From Escherichia phage slur07, in sequence record NC_028780.1: DNA of 64,000 nucleotides; one strand, given 5' to 3'. Positions 20,407 to 47,340 of the stretch are shown in pieces. Both the position numbers and the translations under genes were made by a program. Position 1 is the first letter of the stretch. Each line of letters starts with the position of its first letter. The notes below the pieces were generated by a model. That model searched no databases, was not told the origin of the DNA, and worked only from the letters and a program-made list of their open reading frames with translations.

Positions 20407-20754
20407 ATGAATTTTAATTATTACCCTATTCTATTAGAAAAAGACACGAAACAACCAAAATGGCAGGGTCCTCAGTTTATTAAAGGTGTCTATCAATTAG
20501 TAGTTCCTAAAGATAAGATTTATAGTAGTTGTTTTACTGAATCCGCTTGCAGTATTTTCGGTAATAGTTCTCCGTATTGGAATTTTGACATAAAGTTGGA
20601 TAGAAATATCGATATTTGGTTGAAAGCTATGGATATTGGTAATATCACGTTTGATGAGAATAATTATCATATTATTGGTCGCTTTTCCAAACGCGGTAAA
20701 GAATTATATTTCACGCCTGAAATTGAGAGAAAATTTGATGCTAAACCGTATTGA
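20407..20754 (+). CDS. hypothetical protein inserted between frd and td
   Basis: 115-aa ORF with no counterpart I can place in T4, where frd and td abut. Confidence 0.55.
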   Translation: MNFNYYPILLEKDTKQPKWQGPQFIKGVYQLVVPKDKIYSSCFTESACSIFGNSSPYWNFDIKLDRNIDIWLKAMDIGNITFDENNYHIIGRFSKRGKELYFTPEIERKFDAKPY

Positions 20755-20799: not shown

Positions 20800-21660
20800 A
20801 TGAAACAATACCAAGATTTAATTAAAGACATTTTTGAAAATGGCTATGAAACCGATGACCGAACGGGCACAGGAACAATTGCTTTGTTCGGTACTAAATT
20901 ACGCTGGGATTTAAGTAAAGGTTTTCCTGCAGTAACAACTAAGAAGCTCGCCTGGAATGCATGCATTGCTGAGCTTTTATGGTTTATTTCCGGTTCTACC
21001 AATGTTAATGATTTACGTCTTCGCACTCATGGTAGTCTTATTCAAGGCAAAACTATTTGGGACGATAACTATGAAAACCAGGCTAAAGACCTAGGATATC
21101 ATAGTGGTGAACTTGGTCCTATATACGGTAAACAATGGCGTGATTTCGGTGGTGTGGATCAATTAGTTGAAACTATTGATCGTATTAAAAAATTACCAAC
21201 TGATCGACGTCAAATCGTTTCAGCATGGAATCCAGCTGAAATCAATCAAATGGCATTACCGCCCTGTCATATGTTCTATCAGTTTAATGTGCGTAATGGT
21301 TATCTTGATTTACAATGGTACCAAAGAAGTGTAGATGTTTTCTTGGGATTGCCATTCAACATTGCCTCGTACGCTGCCTTGACGCATATTGTGGCTAAGA
21401 TGTGTAATCTTATCCCAGGAGATTTGATATTTTCTGGTGGTAATACTCACATCTATATGAATCATACTGAGCAATGTAAAGAAATTTTACGTCGTGAGCC
21501 TAAAGAACTATGTGAACTTAAAATTGATTGGCCTATAGAGTTTGGAAATTGTGACACCGAAACACAGCTTTACTGGTTAACTGAATACATGAAACCGAAA
21601 GATTTTATCCTTGAAAATTATGAATCGCATCCAGCAATTAAAGGGAAAATGGCAATATGA
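20800..21660 (+). CDS. td: thymidylate synthase, intron-less
   Basis: 286 aa continuous ORF matching T4 Td exons joined; active-site region PPCHMFYQF present; no group I intron. Confidence 0.93.
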
Positions 21661-21920
21661 TTTTACGATTTAAAGATACTTCTGGCGTTGTTCTTTTTAC
21701 ACTTCCTAACCCAAGCGAGTTAGAAGTTCCAGGACCAGAACAGCCTATTATCATTTATGGTAAAAAATATTATACTCATAAAATGACTCGTGAGTATTTT
21801 GATAATAAAATTTCCACAGTTAAAACTTCTTCTGACTGTTACTACGATATTACTGTTTTAACGGAAAAACAATATGACGAATTATTCCAGCGTGGGCCGT
21901 CTATGCCGAGTAGTGAATAA
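21657..21920 (+). CDS. hypothetical protein
   Basis: 87-aa ORF overlapping td stop. Confidence 0.5.
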
Positions 21921-22200
21921 ATATAAATCCGACTTTGATGTTAATATTCACCGTGGTACATTTTGGGGAAATTACGTCGGTAAAGATGCTGGCAGCCGGG
22001 AGGCTGCCATTGAATTATTCAAAAAAGATTTTATACGTCGAATTAAATCCGGAGAAATAACTAAAGCACATTTAGAGCCTTTACGTGGAATGAGGCTAGG
22101 ATGCACATGTAAACCAAAGCCGTGTCATGGTGATATAATAGCTCATATAGTTAACCGAGTGTTTAAAGACGATTTTCAAGTTGAGGACTTATGCAATTAA
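21874..22200 (+). CDS. conserved small Cys/His-motif protein (DUF4326-like, nrdA.1 position)
   Basis: 108 aa with [14 protein letters not shown]...[14 protein letters not shown]; family name recalled from memory. Confidence 0.5.
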
Positions 22201-24455
22201 TTAATGTTATCAAAAGTAGTGGTGTTTCTCAGAGCTTTGACCCGCAAAAAATTATTAAAGTTTTATCTTGGGCAGCTGAAGGAACATCTGTAGATCCTTA
22301 TGAATTATATGAAAATATTAAATCATATCTCCGTGATGGAATGACCACTGATGACATTCAAACCATTGTAATTAAGGCTGCTGCGAATTCTATTTCAGTT
22401 GAAGAGCCTGATTACCAATATGTAGCTGCACGCTGTTTAATGTTCGCTCTTCGTAAGCATGTTTACGGGCAGTATGAACCACGTTCATTTATTGACCATA
22501 TTTCTTACTGTGTAAATGAAGGTAAATATGACCCTGAACTGTTGTCAAAATATTCTGCCGAAGAAATTACATTTTTAGAATCAAAAATTAAGCATGAGCG
22601 GGATATGGAATTTACTTATTCCGGGGCGATGCAATTAAAAGAAAAATATCTAGTTAAAGATAAAACCACTGGTCAAATTTATGAAACTCCACAGTTTGCA
22701 TTTATGACTATTGGAATGGCACTGCATCAAGATGAACCTGTTGATAGATTAAAACATGTTATTCGTTTTTATGAAGCAGTATCTACTCGACAGATTTCAT
22801 TGCCAACTCCTATTATGGCTGGTTGTCGTACTCCGACTCGACAGTTTAGTTCATGCGTTGTTATTGAGGCAGGTGATTCATTAAAGTCTATCAATAAGGC
22901 TTCCGCTTCAATTGTTGAATATATCTCTAAACGCGCTGGAATTGGTATTAACGTTGGTATGATTCGTGCCGAAGGTTCTAAGATTGGCATGGGTGAAGTA
23001 CGCCATACTGGTGTTATTCCTTTTTGGAAACATTTTCAGACTGCTGTTAAATCATGTTCACAGGGCGGAATTCGTGGTGGCGCTGCTACTGCTTATTATC
23101 CTATTTGGCATTTGGAAGTTGAAAATCTTCTCGTTTTGAAAAATAACAAAGGTGTAGAAGAAAACCGCATTCGTCATATGGATTATGGTGTTCAACTGAA
23201 TGATCTAATGATGGAACGTTTTGGAAAGAACGACTACATTACTTTGTTCAGTCCGCATGAAATGGGTGGCGAGCTTTATTATTCTTATTTTAAAGACCAA
23301 GACCGTTTCCGTGAATTATACGAAGCAGCAGAAAAAGACCCTAATATTCGTAAAAAGCGTATTAAAGCCCGTGAACTATTTGAATTGCTCATGACTGAAC
23401 GCTCAGGAACAGCAAGGATTTATGTACAGTTCATTGATAATACGAATAACTATACTCCGTTTATTCGTGAAAAGGCACCTATTCGTCAGAGTAACTTGTG
23501 CTGTGAAATTGCTATTCCAACAAATGATGTGAATAGCCCCGATGCTGAAATTGGATTGTGCACGTTATCTGCATTTGTGCTGGATAACTTCGATTGGCAA
23601 GACCAAGATAAAATTAATGAATTGGCAGAAGTCCAAGTTCGTGCTCTTGATAATCTTTTGGATTACCAAGGATATCCAGTTCCTGAAGCAGAAAAAGCTA
23701 AAAAGCGTCGTAACCTCGGTGTAGGTGTTACTAACTATGCAGCTTGGCTGGCAAGTAACTTTGCTTCTTATGAAGATGCTAACGATTTAACACATGAACT
23801 ATTTGAGAGATTACAGTATGGACTCATTAAAGCATCCATTAAGCTCGCCAAAGAAAAAGGACCTTGCGAATATTATTCAGACACTCGTTGGTCTCGAGGC
23901 GAATTACCTATCGACTGGTACAATAAAAAGATTGACCAAATCGCAGCTCCAAAATACGTTTGTGACTGGTCGGCGCTGCGGGAAGACCTTAAGCTCTTTG
24001 GCATCCGTAATAGCACATTATCAGCACTTATGCCATGTGAGTCATCTTCCCAAGTTTCTAACAGTACAAACGGTATCGAGCCTCCACGTGGACCAGTCTC
24101 TGTTAAAGAATCAAAAGAGGGCTCCTTTAATCAAGTCGTGCCCAATATTGAGCATAACATAGACCTCTATGATTATACATGGAAATTAGCTAAGAAAGGT
24201 AATAAACCTTATCTTACGCAGGTAGCTATTATGCTGAAATGGGTATGTCAATCAGCTTCAGCGAATACATATTATGACCCACAGATTTTTCCAAAAGGAA
24301 AGGTTCCAATGTCAATAATGATTGATGACCTTTTGTATTTTTGGTATTTTGGCGGAAAAAATTTCTATTATCATAATACCCGTGATGGTTCTGGTACTGA
24401 TGATTATGAAATAGAAACTCCAAAAGCTGAAGATTGTTCATCCTGTAAATTATGA
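22191..24455 (+). CDS. nrdA: aerobic ribonucleotide reductase large subunit
   Basis: 754 aa matching T4 NrdA. Confidence 0.95.
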   Translation: MQLINVIKSSGVSQSFDPQKIIKVLSWAAEGTSVDPYELYENIKSYLRDGMTTDDIQTIVIKAAANSISVEEPDYQYVAARCLMFALRKHVYGQYEPRSFIDHISYCVNEGKYDPELLSKYSAEEITFLESKIKHERDMEFTYSGAMQLKEKYLVKDKTTGQIYETPQFAFMTIGMALHQDEPVDRLKHVIRFYEAVSTRQISLPTPIMAGCRTPTRQFSSCVVIEAGDSLKSINKASASIVEYISKRAGIGINVGMIRAEGSKIGMGEVRHTGVIPFWKHFQTAVKSCSQGGIRGGAATAYYPIWHLEVENLLVLKNNKGVEENRIRHMDYGVQLNDLMMERFGKNDYITLFSPHEMGGELYYSYFKDQDRFRELYEAAEKDPNIRKKRIKARELFELLMTERSGTARIYVQFIDNTNNYTPFIREKAPIRQSNLCCEIAIPTNDVNSPDAEIGLCTLSAFVLDNFDWQDQDKINELAEVQVRALDNLLDYQGYPVPEAEKAKKRRNLGVGVTNYAAWLASNFASYEDANDLTHELFERLQYGLIKASIKLAKEKGPCEYYSDTRWSRGELPIDWYNKKIDQIAAPKYVCDWSALREDLKLFGIRNSTLSALMPCESSSQVSNSTNGIEPPRGPVSVKESKEGSFNQVVPNIEHNIDLYDYTWKLAKKGNKPYLTQVAIMLKWVCQSASANTYYDPQIFPKGKVPMSIMIDDLLYFWYFGGKNFYYHNTRDGSGTDDYEIETPKAEDCSSCKL

Positions 24456-24506
24456 TATAATTTGACTCATGGACGAGTCACTATCTATTAACTAAGTGGA
24501 AAATTT

Positions 24507-25685
24507 ATGAGCACAGTTTTTAATACAAATCCAGTTGATGTTTTAAAAGAACCTATGTTTTTTGGTTCAGGTCTTGGTATTGCGCGTTATGATATTCAAC
24601 GCCATAAAGTTTTTGAAGATTTAACCGAAAAGCAATTATCATTTTTCTGGCGTCCTGAAGAAGTAAACTTGATGATGGATGCTGCACAGTTTAATAAGCT
24701 TCCTCAGTATCAGCAAAATATTTTTACTAATAATCTGAAGTATCAATCACTTTTGGATAGCATTCAGGGTCGTGCGCCGTCTGCTGTACTTATGTCATTA
24801 ATTTCAGACCCAAGCCTTGATACATGGGTTGCTACGTGGACTTTTAGTGAAACTATTCACTCTCGTTCATATACACATATCATGCGAAATCTTTATACTG
24901 ATCCATCGAAGGTATTTGATGAGATTGTATTAGATGAAGCTATTATGAAACGTGCTGAATCCATTGGACGTTATTATGATGATGTTCTGACTAAAACTCG
25001 TTATTGGGAAAACGCTAAAGCTGATATCGAATACCAAAAAGAAATTAATGCAGACGAAGATGTTATTGAAGATGCTATTGAGCATGAGACATATTGGAAG
25101 CGTGAGCTAATGAAATCTCTTTACCTCTGTTTGCATGTAATCAACGCATTGGAAGCTATTCGTTTTTATGTATCTTTCGCATGTACCTTTAACTTCCATA
25201 AGAACATGGAAATCATGGAAGGTAATGCCAAGATTATGAAGTTCATTGCACGTGATGAGCAGCTTCACCTTAAAGGCACTCAATATATTATTCGTCAACT
25301 TCAACTTGGCACTGATGGCGATGAATGGGTTAAAATTGCTCAAGAGTGTGAACAAGAAGCAGTTGATATTTTCATGGAAGTTAACCGCCAAGAAAAAGAT
25401 TGGGCAGTTCATTTATTTAAAGATGGCGATGTTCCTGGATTAAATACAAATAGCATGTGGAGCTTTATTGATTACTTAACTGTATCTCGTATGAAACAGT
25501 GTGGTCTTCCATGCCCGATTACCGATGCTCCGGTTAAACATCCATATCCTTGGATTCGTGAATATCTTAATTCTGATAATGTTCAATCCGCGCCACAAGA
25601 AGTAGAACTGTCATCTTACCTTGTTGCACAGATTGATAATGATGTTGATGATAAAGTTATGATGAGTTTTAAAAAATACTTTTAA
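24507..25685 (+). CDS. nrdB: aerobic ribonucleotide reductase small subunit, intron-less
   Basis: 392 aa continuous ORF matching T4 NrdB; no intron or intron endonuclease. Confidence 0.93.
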   Translation: MSTVFNTNPVDVLKEPMFFGSGLGIARYDIQRHKVFEDLTEKQLSFFWRPEEVNLMMDAAQFNKLPQYQQNIFTNNLKYQSLLDSIQGRAPSAVLMSLISDPSLDTWVATWTFSETIHSRSYTHIMRNLYTDPSKVFDEIVLDEAIMKRAESIGRYYDDVLTKTRYWENAKADIEYQKEINADEDVIEDAIEHETYWKRELMKSLYLCLHVINALEAIRFYVSFACTFNFHKNMEIMEGNAKIMKFIARDEQLHLKGTQYIIRQLQLGTDGDEWVKIAQECEQEAVDIFMEVNRQEKDWAVHLFKDGDVPGLNTNSMWSFIDYLTVSRMKQCGLPCPITDAPVKHPYPWIREYLNSDNVQSAPQEVELSSYLVAQIDNDVDDKVMMSFKKYF

Positions 25686-35518: not shown

Positions 35519-35721
35519 ATATAATTAATAAGATTTTTGGAATTCAGTACATTAAGGTCACATATAAAGTAACAGATAAAAATCCGTATACTGATGAACA
35601 CGAAGAACCACAAGTTAAGTCTATTATATTAGAAAAGGACCCTAACTGGCCAGTTGAATTTCGTCTTCCTTGCTATGGTCATTGGGCTGATGTTGAAATT
35701 ATAAGCATTGAAAATGTCTGA
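35515..35721 (+). CDS. hypothetical protein
   Basis: 68-aa ORF. Confidence 0.45.
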   Translation: MNIINKIFGIQYIKVTYKVTDKNPYTDEHEEPQVKSIILEKDPNWPVEFRLPCYGHWADVEIISIENV

Positions 35722-36172
35722 GTTAGAGATTAGAAGTAATTTTAGATGGCCATCATGCGCATTAAGTAATTTTGCCCAATGGCCTTTCGTCATGGATGGT
35801 ATTCAATTCGGAGGTCTCGAAGGATTCCTCCAAGGATGTAAGGTGAAAAACGTTGAACAACAACGTCGTATATTTGGATTATCCGGGCTTGCCGCCCAAC
35901 AAGCTGGAAGGTCTTATGCTAGAGCTCAGGACCATGGGACCCTCTTCTGGCTTGGAGTTCCATTTTCAAGATACTCCCCGGCGTGGAAAGAATTATACAC
36001 AAATGCATATTTTGAAGCAGCGATCCAAAACAAGGGCTTTCGTGATGCATTACAAGCCTCGAAAGGAAAAGTTTTGAAGCACAGCATGGCTAGTGGTCTA
36101 ACAAAAGATGATACAATACTAACCGAAGCTGAATTTATTGATGTGTTAAACCTATTAAGAGACTCTCTATGA
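35708..36172 (+). CDS. NADAR/YbiA-like (DUF1768-type) protein
   Basis: 154 aa; segment ALSNFAQWPFVMDGIQFGGLEGFLQGCK aligns by eye with the E. coli YbiA core FSNFAAWPIKVDGKTWPTSEHYFQAQK; His of the EH pair replaced. Confidence 0.6.
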   Translation: MKMSELEIRSNFRWPSCALSNFAQWPFVMDGIQFGGLEGFLQGCKVKNVEQQRRIFGLSGLAAQQAGRSYARAQDHGTLFWLGVPFSRYSPAWKELYTNAYFEAAIQNKGFRDALQASKGKVLKHSMASGLTKDDTILTEAEFIDVLNLLRDSL

Positions 36173-45567: not shown

Positions 45568-47340
45568 TTAATTAACCCCAGTCGCATCAAATACACCAGG
45601 AGCAGTTGTGCTTGTGACAGGTGTCATATTATGAACGACAGTATTTTTCTTAATAACATTATTAGTATTGTTGATTGAAGGAGATGCTTGTTGAACAGGA
45701 GCTTGCTGTGCTTTGTTCTTTTCTATTACCTGGACTTGTTTTGCTTCTGGCGATTTAGCAGAAGTTTCAGGTTTGGCATTAGGCTGATTTTTCTTGAGCT
45801 CTTGATAAGTAGCATCAATTTTAGAAAATCTAGCAGCAAGTTCTTTTTTAACTGCCGGTGAATTATTTAAATCCGGGTCATCCATCCGTTTTTTAAGGTC
45901 TTCATAGGCAGATTCAACAGATTTAACCGTTGAGTCTTTACTCATATCAGCTGAATCAGCATATTTTTCAAAGCGAATCATTGCGGCACGGGCTTCATTA
46001 GCCTTCATTAAAGCATTTTTTCTTTCTTCAGGTGAAAGTTGCTTTAATTTTTCTTCTTCTGCTGCACGTTCTTCGTCGGTAGTTAGTGCTTCTTTATTAT
46101 CAACCCCACGAATCCAATTAGATGCACGAGTTTTCCAATTAGCAATTTTATCTAATCCTTTTGCTATCGGACCAAGGTCTCCGTTCATTCGTTTATCTTG
46201 ATAATTTGCAACTTTTTCCTGGTCTTCTTTATTGAGAGATGCTCCAGTAGAATTTTGGAAATTTTCTAATGCTCTTCCTTCTACTTCATCAGCAGTATCC
46301 TTCATACCAGGAATGACTCGAAGAATTGCTGCAGATAATTTAGCCATACCTAATTGAATAAGTTCACCTAAATTAAAAAGAACACTTCCGAGTCCTTCAA
46401 CAATAGCTGCTGTCAATCCACCCCAATCTCCCGCTTCCCAAAGTTGTTTAATTTTATCAATAGAATCAAAGATGCTCTGTAATAAAGGACCCCATGTTCC
46501 GGTTTCGCTAGAGAATTTAGTAAAGTCAGTATTAAATAAATCCCAGGCTTTTGAAAATTTATCTGACCAGTATTTAAAATGAACCATCAACAGGTCTATT
46601 CCAACAACAACAGCCAATATCATTGCAGTCATTTTAGCAGCTTCAATAGCAGCACTGATGGTGTACTTAAATAACATGCTTGATATTTTATCAGTAATTG
46701 AAATGGATTTTTTAAATCCAAAATCAACAGTCTTCGTTAATTTATCTAAAGCTTGAGATAATTTTAAGTTAAATGCTTCTTTTTTCTGTTTTTCTTCTGG
46801 CGATTCTTGTTTGGGTTCAACTGGCTGAGGGGTAGGGAAAAAATCAGCGTCAGGATCATTATTAACTGCTTCAGGGGCCGGTAATAAAGGACCCACAGAT
46901 TCAGCTGTATCATCCTCAACGACTTTAACAGGAATAGCGCTTTCAACTGTGGCTAAACTAGTTCCAGTCTGTTGAATTCCAGCTGTCTGAATTTTTTGCT
47001 CTAGTAAACTTGTTAATTTATCTAATTTACTTCCGAGTGATTCACCGATTTCTTTATTAATATTGTTGCCAATTTCGACAGTTTCAGCAATTAACTCAGA
47101 ACCGGCAGTAGTATCACTCACTGCGCTTTCTACGTTACCAATTGCTCCAACTATTTCATTCGATTTTTCTTCGACAGTTTGAGCTATTAATTCAGAAGCA
47201 GCTTGAGCATCATCCAATTTCGTAGATATATCATTAAGTCCAGATAAAGTGTTGGAAGCGGATTTAGCCGCTTCCTGTGTTGGTTTATTATCTGAAATAA
47301 CTTTTCTACGCATCGTTTGCATTTCTTGTGGCTTTTTCAT
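45568..47340 (-). CDS. 29: gp29 baseplate hub / tail-length determinator
   Basis: 590 aa, same length as T4 gp29. Confidence 0.9.
   Translation of the reverse strand: MKKPQEMQTMRRKVISDNKPTQEAAKSASNTLSGLNDISTKLDDAQAASELIAQTVEEKSNEIVGAIGNVESAVSDTTAGSELIAETVEIGNNINKEIGESLGSKLDKLTSLLEQKIQTAGIQQTGTSLATVESAIPVKVVEDDTAESVGPLLPAPEAVNNDPDADFFPTPQPVEPKQESPEEKQKKEAFNLKLSQALDKLTKTVDFGFKKSISITDKISSMLFKYTISAAIEAAKMTAMILAVVVGIDLLMVHFKYWSDKFSKAWDLFNTDFTKFSSETGTWGPLLQSIFDSIDKIKQLWEAGDWGGLTAAIVEGLGSVLFNLGELIQLGMAKLSAAILRVIPGMKDTADEVEGRALENFQNSTGASLNKEDQEKVANYQDKRMNGDLGPIAKGLDKIANWKTRASNWIRGVDNKEALTTDEERAAEEEKLKQLSPEERKNALMKANEARAAMIRFEKYADSADMSKDSTVKSVESAYEDLKKRMDDPDLNNSPAVKKELAARFSKIDATYQELKKNQPNAKPETSAKSPEAKQVQVIEKNKAQQAPVQQASPSINNTNNVIKKNTVVHNMTPVTSTTAPGVFDATGVN

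What the first reader, a model, noticed from the sequence alone, without database searches (positions are those of the whole stretch)
21874..22200. Small protein with C-x-C-x4-C-H cluster upstream of nrdA
The 108-aa product has a conserved-looking N-terminal W-G-N motif and a C-terminal [14 protein letters not shown] cluster, which looks like a metal-binding or catalytic domain of a widespread phage family of unknown function. Its position in the nucleotide-metabolism operon suggests a nucleotide-related role.
Basis: partly seen in the sequence, partly recalled or inferred. Interest (0 to 1): 0.35.

Follow-up and report, generated by a model that had tools for sequence, protein, structure and literature searches.

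The report
T4 NrdA.1, a DUF4326 enzyme-like protein
This small gene is the well-known but uncharacterised T4 gene nrdA.1, a stand-alone copy of the widespread DUF4326 domain whose invariant Cys/His loop looks like an active or metal site; published T4 transposon data show it is dispensable and not needed for the neighbouring nucleotide-synthesis enzymes.

Summary
Window 21874-22200 (+) is a 108-aa ORF, the orthologue of T4 nrdA.1; the window is 100% identical to Shigella phage JK38, a Tequatrovirus.

The Cys/His cluster is almost universally conserved. Among 155 domains from the best 150 of 10,278 family representatives, C77 and C84 are 155/155, C79 153, H85 154, P81 153, N33 154 and R27 149.

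AlphaFold gives a confident small alpha/beta domain (pLDDT 87.9). The cluster forms the loop between the last core strand and a helix. No solved structure resembles it.

The operon-based interpretation is not supported:
- Outside T4-like phages there is no recurrent link to RNR or thymidylate synthase.
- In published T4 Tn-seq, nrdA.1 insertions are neutral in LB, M9 and with DarTG1, while nrdA, nrdB and td insertions are costly.

The domain's recurrent partners are SLOG, NADAR, Macro, TIR and DUF488, which handle nucleotides and ADP-ribose. T4 encodes NADAR (AdfN, also in this window) and Macro (AdfM) separately.

Best reading: an accessory Cys- or metal-dependent enzyme acting on a ribose-phosphate, nucleotide or ADP-ribose-derived substrate, probably in phage-host conflict. 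The family is already known and its function is untested.

The parts
21874..22200 (+). nrdA.1 coding sequence (108 aa, ATG start, TAA stop at 22198-22200); a stand-alone DUF4326 domain
   Evidence: ORF list and sequence. Pfam PF14216 E 5.5e-22 over residues 11-90. Same CDS annotated in JK38 and in T4D (46513-46839). AF2 pLDDT 87.9, pTM 0.80.
21863..21865 (+). weak Shine-Dalgarno-like GGA, 8 nt before the ATG (inferred)
   Evidence: Read directly from the sequence. No experimental support. Homologues in other T4-like genera start about 10 codons later, at M-K-x-C-R-V-V-N.
21874..21920 (+). 47-nt overlap, in another frame, with the 3' end of nrdA.2 (DUF5496, 21657..21920)
   Evidence: The same overlap is annotated in JK38 and T4D.
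21904..21918 (+). first core strand C11-R-V-V-N15; V14 and N15 are family-wide conserved, C11 only within T4-like phages
   Evidence: AF2 strand 12-15. N15 is 141/155 and V14 140/155; at C11 the family has T 63 and C 27.
21937..21972 (+). D22 ... R27-G28 ...
   Evidence: D22 143/155, R27 149, W31 117 (with F 26 and Y 10), G32 146, N33 154. Invariant in the 32 T4-like homologues.
21997..21999 (+). R42 at the start of the long helix 42-59
   Evidence: 127/155 conserved. Helix 42-59 in the model.
22099..22134 (+). G76-C77-T-C79-K-P81-K-P-C84-H85-G86-D87: end of core strand 3, the loop, and the first turn of helix 85-96; the putative active or metal site
   Evidence: C77 155/155, C79 153, P81 153, C84 155, H85 154, G86 145, D87 144. 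Strand 74-77, loop 78-84, helix 85-96, with pLDDT 93-94 in this stretch. A degenerate DNA pattern for this motif retrieved 120 viral stretches (117 DUF4326-matching ORFs) and 120 cellular stretches (120 such ORFs).
22183..22200 (+). 3' end of nrdA.1, carrying the nrdA ribosome-binding site GAGGA (22183-22187) and the nrdA ATG (22191); a 10-nt overlap that suggests translational coupling (inferred)
   Evidence: Sequence and ORF list. No terminator-like site on the + strand between td and the end of nrdA; the first follows nrdA at 24463-24480.

Best explanation
The ORF is the T-even phage gene nrdA.1. It encodes a single DUF4326 domain.

Shown here:
- It is a small alpha/beta domain with element order strand, strand, helices, strand, loop, helix.
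- The near-invariant residues fall into two groups. One group follows the first two strands: N15, D22, R27, G32-N33 and R42. The other is the loop C77-x-C79-x-P81-x-x-C84-H85-G86-D87, which links the last core strand to the next helix.
- In Rossmann-like enzymes this is where active sites lie.

Inferred:
- The domain is an enzyme, and the Cys/His loop is either the catalytic centre (a Cys nucleophile with His and Asp) or a catalytic or organising metal site.
- Its substrate is a ribose-phosphate-containing molecule derived from a nucleotide or from NAD/ADP-ribose, or such a group attached to a nucleic-acid end.
- The reason is that the domain is repeatedly fused to, or encoded next to, SLOG, NADAR, Macro, TIR and DUF488 domains.

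In T-even phages it is made as a separate early or middle protein. It is probably co-transcribed, and translationally coupled, with td, nrdA.2 and nrdA. It is dispensable in laboratory hosts and is not needed for RNR or thymidylate synthase function. Its most likely role is therefore accessory: clean-up or counter-defence against a host system absent from E. coli K-12.
For: Identity: Pfam DUF4326 E 5.5e-22. DNA is 100% identical to Tequatrovirus JK38 and is annotated NrdA.1 in phage NR1.

Conservation: 32 T4-like homologues, 155 diverse domains and 85 stand-alone representatives.

Fold: AF2 pLDDT 87.9. The only structural matches are DUF4326 proteins of phages, haloarchaeal viruses and giant viruses, 17 of them at E<=1e-3.

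Fusions among 49 long representatives:
- mSLOG 7, YAcAr 6, DprA-like 4
- NADAR 5-6, in both orders
- Macro 1, TIR 1
- HD, RNase H, T7-type RNA polymerase, and one insertion between the exonuclease and polymerase domains of a family-A DNA polymerase.

Cellular neighbourhoods:
- 26 of 120 loci are a tight operon of DUF488-N3a followed by an mSLOG-DUF4326 fusion, with gaps of -3 to +10 nt in 24 and a 75-nt overlap in 2.
- 16 further neighbours are YAcAr SLOG.

Possible relatedness to DUF488:
- Active DUF488 carries C-x-E-x-[KE]-P-x-x-C-H-R at the same strand-loop-helix position.
- 15/85 DUF4326 proteins give sub-threshold hits to Pfam 'Active DUF488-N3 subclade' and to no other recurrent family.
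- The YeaO model has the same order of secondary-structure elements.

Same genome: gp30.3 (window 35708-36172) is NADAR-like, with hhalign probability 95.6% and E 1e-8 against the NADAR parts of DUF4326 fusions. It is the characterised anti-DarTG1 enzyme AdfN (PMC11257639). T4 Tk.4 is the Macro-domain AdfM (bioRxiv 10.1101/2025.11.20.689424).

Literature: Iyer, Burroughs and Aravind predict that DUF4326 is a divergent rhodanese-phosphatase clade that processes terminal phosphates on ribose in ADP-ribose derivatives (PMC9503650; PMC7824862).

Dispensability: 29 of 31 TA sites hit, called 'Non-essential'.
Against: - No biochemical or genetic phenotype exists for any DUF4326 protein in the papers I could search.
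- Foldseek against the PDB found nothing (best E 2.5). Placement in the rhodanese-phosphatase superfamily is therefore not confirmed here.
- The links to DUF488 are individually non-significant: hhalign E 0.0015-0.11 with probability 0.5-16%, and Foldseek E 0.2-5.
- The loop has no Arg of a C-X5-R phosphate-binding loop, and it has an invariant proline. Three invariant Cys plus a His in 9 residues is equally typical of a structural zinc site.
- T-even phages lack an adjacent SLOG or DUF488 partner.
- nrdA.1 insertions showed no fitness change with DarTG1 (log2FC -0.00, p 0.99). DarTG2 gave a single hit, tk.4. No counter-defence role has been seen so far.
- In some T4-like phages the gene is frameshifted or truncated.
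Confidence: 0.5

Rival explanations
1. Accessory factor of nucleotide synthesis. NrdA.1 would work with ribonucleotide reductase or thymidylate synthase, for example as a thiol redox partner that uses its three cysteines, or as a component of the T4 dNTP-synthesising complex.
For: - The gene order td - (nrdA.2) - DUF4326 - nrdA is conserved in Escherichia and Acinetobacter T4-like phages.
- The gene overlaps the nrdA start and carries the nrdA ribosome-binding site.
- In Klebsiella phages it lies next to nrdB.
- In an unrelated phage it sits after a PolA-like gene and 3 genes before ThyX.
- dCMP deaminase (2) and RNR (1) occur among 136 viral neighbours.
Against: T4 Tn-seq, read counts per site:
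- nrdA.1 291.7 vs 290.7 in control vs DarTG1, where nrdA is 0.3-0.4 and nrdB 0.0-0.1.
- nrdA.1 264.5 vs 258.4 in LB vs M9, where nrdA is 0.9-4.3, nrdB 0.4-3.4 and td 38.9-107.5.

Losing NrdA.1 therefore costs nothing where losing RNR or TS does.

Other points:
- An Aeromonas-type T4-like locus has td-DUF4326 but no nrdA next to it.
- No RNR or TS family recurs in the wider neighbourhoods.
- There are no fusions to RNR, TS, thioredoxin or glutaredoxin.
- There is no CxxC motif.
Confidence: 0.1
2. Non-enzymatic zinc (or iron-sulfur) module. C77, C79, C84 and H85 would bind a structural metal, and the protein would act by binding a nucleotide, nucleic acid or partner protein, as a sensor, adaptor or inhibitor.
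For: - Three Cys plus one His are invariant within 9 residues, a pattern typical of structural metal sites.
- The protein is very small.
- The loop lacks the Arg of phosphatase P-loops.
- No enzyme fold was recognised in the PDB.
Against: - Six further polar residues outside the cluster are near-invariant (N15, D22, R27, N33, R42, D87). That suits a substrate pocket better than a scaffold.
- The domain is fused to enzymes as one module among several catalytic ones.
- The probable relatives in DUF488 have Glu in place of C79. A whole 'inactive' subclade (YeaO) has lost both cysteines yet is predicted to fold the same way.
Confidence: 0.2
3. Nucleic-acid end or adduct processing enzyme of replication and repair. 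The domain would act on DNA or RNA termini, or on base or backbone adducts. Examples are a 3'- or 5'-phosphate or a ribosyl-phosphate remnant left after NADAR or Macro enzymes remove ADP-ribose, rather than soluble small molecules.
For: - Fusions to family-A DNA polymerase (inserted between the exonuclease and polymerase domains), RNase H, T7-like RNA polymerase and HD.
- Neighbours include PIF1 helicase, 5'-3' exonuclease, Pol III alpha, RtcB, DNA methylase, DpdA and ParB.
- It lies in the early DNA-metabolism region of T4-like genomes.
- AdfN is reported to work fully only during T-even infection, and its authors raise 'another factor' as one explanation (PMC11257639).
- The Burroughs and Aravind 2023 abstract, as I recall it, predicts DNA-end processing for part of this clade (title confirmed; paper not readable here).
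Against: - nrdA.1 insertions are neutral in the presence of DarTG1, and DarTG2 selects only tk.4. It is therefore not required to complete AdfN or AdfM repair in T4.
- The polymerase-type fusions are single cases, against 17 SLOG and 5-6 NADAR fusions in the same sample.
Confidence: 0.2

Closest known systems
Pfam DUF4326 (PF14216), including T4 NrdA.1 itself
   Same: Full-length match above the curated threshold. Same motifs, same size, same predicted fold as viral DUF4326 models.
   Different: Nothing essential. The T-even subgroup has a 10-residue N-terminal extension of low confidence. It also has Y34 instead of the family's Pro, H26 for Gly, N24 for Tyr, and a lineage-specific C11.
DUF488 (PF04343; 'active' N3a subclade and 'inactive' YeaO-type N3i subclade)
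   Same: - Similar size and the same order of secondary-structure elements.
- Active members carry C-x-E-x-[KE]-P-x-x-C-H-R at the equivalent strand-loop-helix position.
- Encoded immediately upstream of mSLOG-DUF4326 in 26 of 120 cellular loci.
- The only family recurrently hit at sub-threshold level by DUF4326 sequences.
   Different: - Statistical support for homology is weak: hhalign E 0.0015-0.11, Foldseek E 0.2-5.
- The loop is one residue longer, with Glu or His where DUF4326 has C79 and Arg-Arg where DUF4326 has Gly-Asp.
- The N-terminal motifs differ.
- DUF488 is also functionally uncharacterised.
Cys-based phosphatases and rhodaneses (C-X5-R loop), the superfamily proposed by Burroughs and Aravind
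   Same: A cysteine at the end of a core strand, followed by a short loop and a helix. C79-X5-H85 has the spacing of C-X5-R. The proposed substrates are phosphate esters (PMC9503650).
   Different: - No Arg in the loop.
- An invariant proline lies within it.
- There are two additional invariant cysteines.
- No significant sequence or structure match to any solved phosphatase, rhodanese or RapZ.
- Phosphatases appear only at E>2 in the YeaO search.
T4 AdfN (gp30.3, NADAR) and AdfM (Tk.4, Macro), the stand-alone ADP-ribose-removing counter-defence enzymes of T-even phages
   Same: Small, non-essential, early single-domain proteins of the same genomes. Their domain families are the ones found fused to DUF4326 in other viruses.
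   Different: Unrelated folds. AdfN and AdfM have demonstrated phenotypes against DarTG1 and DarTG2. nrdA.1 shows none in those screens.

Membership tests
DUF4326 (PF14216) | Match to the family HMM above the curated gathering score | tested here: met
   78.7 bits against a cut-off of 25, E 5.5e-22, profile positions 1-81 of 82.
DUF4326 (PF14216) | C-terminal signature L-G-C-x-C-x-P-x-x-C-H-G-D | tested here: met
   Present at residues 75-87. Each position is conserved in 144-155 of 155 family domains.
DUF4326 (PF14216) | N-terminal signature V-V-N ... D-V-x-I-G-R-G-x-x-W-G-N-P | tested here: met
   V13-V14-N15, D22, I25, R27-G28 and W31-G32-N33 are present. Three non-catalytic-looking positions deviate: N24 for Y, H26 for G, Y34 for P.
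DUF4326 (PF14216) | Predicted fold shared with other family members | tested here: met
   Foldseek against BFVD: 17 hits at E<=1e-3, those with names are almost all DUF4326-labelled proteins, TM up to 0.86.
Rhodanese-phosphatase superfamily (RapZ-C / DUF488 / DUF4326 clade of Burroughs and Aravind) | Core strand ending in a conserved Cys, followed by an active-site loop and a helix | tested here: met
   AF2 model: strand 74-77 ending at C77, loop 78-84, helix 85-96, pLDDT 93-94. This is a topological resemblance only.
Rhodanese-phosphatase superfamily (RapZ-C / DUF488 / DUF4326 clade of Burroughs and Aravind) | C-X(4-5)-R phosphate- or sulfur-binding loop | tested here: not met
   The loop is C-T-C-K-P-K-P-C-H. 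There is no Arg, and His occupies the position six residues after C79.
Rhodanese-phosphatase superfamily (RapZ-C / DUF488 / DUF4326 clade of Burroughs and Aravind) | Detectable structural similarity to solved members (PTP, rhodanese, RapZ C-terminal domain) | tested here: not met
   Foldseek against 350,542 PDB chains: best E 2.5, no phosphatase, rhodanese or RapZ among the hits. Sequence profile against the PDB: nothing relevant.
Rhodanese-phosphatase superfamily (RapZ-C / DUF488 / DUF4326 clade of Burroughs and Aravind) | Homology to DUF488 | tested here: inconclusive
   - hhalign E 0.11 (YeaO), 0.0015 (2 viral DUF488) and 0.005 (29 DUF488-N3a), with probability 0.5-16%.
- 15/85 members hit Pfam DUF488-N3a sub-threshold, best E 0.0029.
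- Reciprocal Foldseek hits at E 0.2-5.
- The motif and the order of secondary-structure elements agree.
Structural zinc-binding module (Cys3His) | Four ligands arranged tetrahedrally around a metal | not testable with these tools
   Model coordinates are not exposed and no metal-aware prediction is available. Only the sequence pattern C-x-C-x4-C-H is known.
Thioredoxin / glutaredoxin-type RNR reductants | CxxC active site in a thioredoxin fold | tested here: not met
   No CxxC in the sequence. No thioredoxin-fold or Pfam match.
NADAR / Macro / SLOG (ADP-ribose and nucleotide-processing domains) | Match to the family profiles | tested here: not met
   Pfam reports only DUF4326 at E<=1. These families are fusion partners, not homologues.
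Known anti-defence or defence proteins (PADLOC, NCBIfam names) | Match to a curated model | tested here: not met
   No hit in PADLOC-DB or NCBIfam at E<=1.

The most novel reading that the evidence does not exclude
NrdA.1 would be a third, still unassigned member of the T-even toolkit against NAD/ADP-ribose-based immunity, alongside AdfN (NADAR) and AdfM (Macro). It would be a Cys-dependent enzyme of a fold with no solved structure. It would remove or convert a phospho-ribosyl group, either a soluble immune signal or toxin derived from NAD or a nucleotide, or a remnant on nucleic acid. It would neutralise a host defence that E. coli K-12 lacks. The bacterial operon DUF488-N3a followed by mSLOG-DUF4326 would be the cellular version of the same chemistry.
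Probability: 0.25. Interest if true: 0.65.

Novelty: already known. Interest (0 to 1): 0.3.

Why it matters
As a finding it adds nothing new. The gene is annotated in T4 and in hundreds of relatives, the family is in Pfam, and a computational prediction of its role has been published.

What remains open is the biochemistry of a very large family with an almost invariant Cys/His site and no solved structure or assay. The exhaustive search returned more than 10,000 cluster representatives, and about 4% of sequenced phage records carry the domain. It also occurs in giant viruses, archaeal viruses and many bacteria.

T4 offers the simplest genetic handle on this family. There it is a stand-alone, dispensable copy, in a phage where the two domains most often fused to it elsewhere (NADAR and Macro) have just been shown to be counter-defence enzymes.

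Tried and rejected
- Chance ORF or mis-called start: rejected. The shorter 95-aa annotation in phage NR1 starts at GTG 21913. It would delete the conserved first strand C-R-V-V-N, so it is probably wrong.
- Solved-structure relatives: sequence and profile searches of the PDB and Foldseek against the PDB gave only noise.
- NCBIfam and PADLOC: no hits.
- Conserved operon partner in viruses: 136 immediate neighbours from about 100 loci gave no family more than twice. BLAST-level clustering of 569 neighbours gave no large cluster.
- The search for related loci with the broad alignment failed because no stretch was conserved enough. It was replaced by a degenerate DNA pattern of the Cys loop, which worked.
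- 'NrdA.1 is the missing co-factor of AdfN' (a Rosetta-stone inference from NADAR-DUF4326 fusions): tested against published T4 Tn-seq and rejected for DarTG1 (log2FC -0.00, p 0.99). DarTG2 also selects only tk.4.
- Paralogues or SLOG, NADAR or Macro partners in the window: only gp30.3 (NADAR-like) was found.
- Promoter and terminator scan: not above shuffled controls.
- The Burroughs and Aravind 2023 paper on the rhodanese-phosphatase superfamily could not be retrieved. Only its title is confirmed. What I say of its content is from memory.
Full report
**What is there**

The window is a T4-like (Tequatrovirus) genome. The 701 bases around the finding are 100% identical to Shigella phage JK38 and 95-99% identical to about 500 other T-even phages.

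JK38 annotates it identically. So does the T4D genome used in a recent transposon study, where it is nrdA.1 at 46513-46839.

The gene's layout is as follows:
- It overlaps the 3' end of nrdA.2 (a DUF5496 protein) by 47 nt.
- Its last 10 nt overlap the start of nrdA.
- The nrdA ribosome-binding site GAGGA lies inside it.
- No terminator-like site lies on the + strand between td and the end of nrdA, so co-transcription is likely. The promoter and terminator scan as a whole was not above shuffled controls.

**Family and conservation**

The protein matches Pfam DUF4326 at 78.7 bits against a threshold of 25, and PHROG 464, 'unknown function'. NCBIfam and PADLOC have nothing.

A word-indexed search found 72 clusters, all from T4-like phages of Escherichia, Serratia, Pectobacterium, Acinetobacter, Providencia, Yersinia and Aeromonas. 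In 32 of them C77, C79, P81, C84, H85, G86, N15, D22, R27, G28, G32, N33 and R74 are invariant.

An exhaustive profile search of 1.84 billion cluster representatives returned 10,278 proteins at E<=1e-3. I aligned 155 domains from the best 150. The counts, out of 155, are:

| Residue | Conserved |
|---|---|
| C77 | 155 |
| C84 | 155 |
| H85 | 154 |
| N33 | 154 |
| C79 | 153 |
| P81 | 153 |
| R27 | 149 |
| G32 | 146 |
| G86 | 145 |
| D87 | 144 |
| D22 | 143 |
| N15 | 141 |
| R42 | 127 |
| W31 | 117 (otherwise F or Y) |

C11 is not part of the cluster. It is Thr in most relatives. The T-even proteins are slightly atypical, with WGNY where the family has WGNP.

These 150 are the best-scoring members, so conservation in the most remote part of the family was not examined.

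**Structure**

AlphaFold2 with the 32-sequence alignment gives pLDDT 87.9 and pTM 0.80. The elements are strand 12-15, a short strand 23-24, helices 36-39, 42-59 and 64-70, strand 74-77, loop 78-84, and helices 85-96 and 103-107.

The Cys/His cluster is thus the connection between the last core strand and the following helix. The other conserved residues follow the first two strands. This is the usual location of active sites in Rossmann-like domains.

Comparisons with known structures gave the following:
- Foldseek found no similar solved structure (best E 2.5).
- Sequence and profile searches of the PDB found nothing.
- Against predicted viral structures, the named hits at E<=1e-3 were almost all DUF4326-labelled proteins. 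They came from phages, haloarchaeal viruses, pandoraviruses, pithoviruses and marseilleviruses.

I could not check whether the four side chains converge on a metal position.

**What the domain keeps company with**

I scanned 49 multi-domain representatives against Pfam:
- 17 carry a SLOG-type domain (mSLOG 7, YAcAr 6, DprA-like 4).
- 5-6 carry NADAR, in both orders.
- One carries Macro and one carries TIR.
- Single cases carry HD, RNase H and a T7-type RNA polymerase.
- In one case DUF4326 is inserted between the exonuclease and polymerase domains of a family-A DNA polymerase.

A degenerate DNA pattern for the Cys loop retrieved 120 viral and 120 cellular loci. Almost every one encodes a DUF4326 ORF.

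In viruses, the 136 immediate neighbours showed no family more than twice. The mix was replication and nucleotide-metabolism genes, with RNR once, dCMP deaminase twice and DUF488 twice.

In bacteria and archaea the picture is sharper:
- 26 of 120 loci are a tight operon of a 146-aa 'active' DUF488 followed by a 200-aa mSLOG-DUF4326 fusion. Gaps are -3 to +10 nt in 24 of them; the other two overlap by 75 nt.
- 16 further neighbours are YAcAr SLOG proteins.

This independently reproduces what Iyer, Burroughs and Aravind reported. They describe fusions to SLOG, Macro and NADAR. They predict a divergent rhodanese-phosphatase enzyme that processes terminal phosphates on the ribose of ADP-ribose derivatives (PMC9503650; PMC7824862).

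**Relation to DUF488 and phosphatases**

The active DUF488 proteins carry C-L-L-C-S-E-H-[KE]-P-H-x-C-H-R-R at the equivalent strand-loop-helix position. NrdA.1 has [13 protein letters not shown].

Statistically the link is weak:
- hhalign gives E 0.11, 0.0015 and 0.005, with probabilities of 0.5-16%.
- 15 of 85 DUF4326 proteins hit the Pfam model 'Active DUF488-N3 subclade' below threshold. No other family recurs.
- An AlphaFold model of the YeaO-type DUF488 (pLDDT 88.3) has the same order of elements.
- In Foldseek, that model lists about 18 DUF4326 proteins just after its own family, but at E 0.2-5.

I regard homology with DUF488 as likely but not demonstrated here. Membership of the rhodanese-phosphatase superfamily is untested beyond topology. 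The C-X5-R signature is absent, and no solved phosphatase, rhodanese or RapZ structure is matched.

**The operon hypothesis**

The order td - DUF4326 - nrdA holds in Escherichia and Acinetobacter T4-like phages. In an Aeromonas-type relative the gene follows td but precedes an unknown ORF and RNA ligase 1. In an unrelated phage it follows a PolA-like gene.

Published T4 transposon-insertion sequencing is decisive for laboratory conditions (HIDEN-SEQ, bioRxiv 10.1101/2025.11.20.689424). nrdA.1 has insertions at 29 of 31 TA sites and is called non-essential. Mean read counts per site are:

| Comparison | nrdA.1 | nrdA | nrdB | td |
|---|---|---|---|---|
| Between two independent libraries | 248 vs 253 | 24.8 vs 24.0 | 27.4 vs 25.1 | not read |
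| Control vs DarTG1 | 291.7 vs 290.7 (log2FC -0.00, p 0.99) | 0.3 vs 0.4 | 0.0 vs 0.1 | 45.0 vs 47.0 |
| LB vs M9 | 264.5 vs 258.4 (p 0.95) | 0.9 vs 4.3 | 0.4 vs 3.4 | 38.9 vs 107.5 |

So NrdA.1 is not needed for RNR or thymidylate synthase function. Insertions in it are also not polar on nrdA.

**The ADP-ribose connection in T4 itself**

The fusion partners of DUF4326 led me to search the window for them. The ORF at 35708..36172 is T4 gp30.3 (Pfam Phage_30_3). Its family aligns with the NADAR halves of NADAR-DUF4326 fusions at hhalign probability 95.6%, E 1e-8.

gp30.3 is AdfN, a NADAR enzyme that removes ADP-ribose from DNA and defeats DarTG1. Its discoverers note that it works fully only during T-even infection. 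They raise 'another factor' as one possible reason, though they favour a preference for modified DNA (PMC11257639). T4 Tk.4 is the Macro-domain AdfM, which acts against DarTG2.

T-even phages therefore encode, as three separate small proteins, three domains that other viruses fuse. That made NrdA.1 a candidate co-factor. The Tn-seq data argue against this: there is no depletion with DarTG1, and DarTG2 yields a single significant gene, tk.4. If NrdA.1 is a counter-defence enzyme, its target is something else.

**Verdict**

- The family guess (DUF4326) is correct.
- 'Metal-binding or catalytic' remains an open alternative.
- The inference from operon position is not supported.

The most likely mechanism, at about 0.5, is an accessory Cys- or metal-dependent enzyme. 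Its substrate would be a ribose-phosphate-containing molecule derived from a nucleotide or from ADP-ribose, or such a group on a nucleic-acid end.

The main rivals are a non-enzymatic zinc module (0.2), a nucleic-acid end-processing role as a distinct substrate class (0.2), and an RNR or dNTP accessory (0.1).

The gene and its family are already known, so novelty is nil. Interest is modest. It rests on the size of the family, the near-absolute conservation of the site, the lack of any structure or assay, and the tractability of T4.

Noticed in passing
window 35708-36172 (+): This is T4 gp30.3, recently characterised as AdfN, a NADAR DNA ADP-ribosylglycohydrolase that counters DarTG1. Pfam calls it only Phage_30_3. 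Its family aligns to NADAR domains at hhalign probability 95.6%. The ORF list starts it at a TTG. The published T4 protein starts two codons later, at M-S-E-L-E (ATG at 35714).
   Followed up: yes
window 20800-21660 (td), 24507-25685 (nrdB), 24455-24507 (nrdA-nrdB spacer): td and nrdB are each a single uninterrupted ORF here, and nrdA is followed directly by nrdB. T4 has the I-TevI and I-TevIII introns and mobE/nrdB.1 at these places. Phage NR1 has a putative methylase gene between nrdA and nrdB. This region is a hotspot of mobile insertions that this phage lacks.
   Followed up: partly
window 20407-20754 (+): A 115-aa ORF lies between frd and td with no Pfam match. It is annotated only as hypothetical in JK38 and NR1. 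It is absent from the T4D gene list, where frd abuts td.
   Followed up: partly
window 21935-22060 (+1 frame inside nrdA.1), around the T4-G4-A3 run at 21961-21971: Some database clusters (P0028, P0046, P0072 from phage HY03) are frameshift hybrids between nrdA.1 and this internal +1-frame ORF. Several T4-like phages carry 57-87-aa truncated versions. Either the gene is decaying in some lineages, or the homopolymer run causes sequencing errors.
   Followed up: partly
L001 12314-12601 (phage vB_Eco_NR1), equivalent to window 21913-22200: NR1 annotates NrdA.1 from an internal GTG (95 aa). That would remove the conserved first strand C-R-V-V-N, so it is probably a start-codon mis-annotation.
   Followed up: yes
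loci L131-L245 (for example L142 2825-3876, L164 1970-3016, L205 3622-4672): Bacterial genomes (Pseudomonas, Vibrio, Raoultella, Alteromonas, Psychromonas, Haemophilus and others) hold a conserved two-gene operon. A DUF488-N3a gene (about 146 aa, motif CLLCSEHxPHxCHRR) is followed, at -3 to +10 nt in most loci, by an mSLOG-DUF4326 fusion (about 200 aa). It occurs in 26 of 120 loci sampled.
   Followed up: partly
loci L145, L176, L178, L193, L196, L198, L200, L203, L204, L209, L220, L243: A nearly identical 124-aa DUF4326 gene (METTVVNLNDY...) lies next to a 319-aa protein with a C-terminal YAcAr SLOG domain. The pair occurs in several copies in the uncultured-bacterium chromosome OZ241875.1 and also in other MAGs. 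It looks like a repeated, possibly mobile, cassette.
   Followed up: partly
P0207 (764 aa) and L005 74-2698: In one protein a DUF4326 domain is inserted between the 3'-5' exonuclease and polymerase domains of a family-A DNA polymerase. In an unrelated phage contig a stand-alone DUF4326 gene follows the PolA-like gene by 4 nt.
   Followed up: no
T4 Tn-seq supplement (bioRxiv 10.1101/2025.11.20.689424, Data S6 and S8): pseT.2 and pseT.3, annotated as hypothetical proteins, have almost no insertions in these competitions (0.0-1.3 reads per site). In the same sheets nrdA.2 behaves as neutral, like nrdA.1.
   Followed up: no
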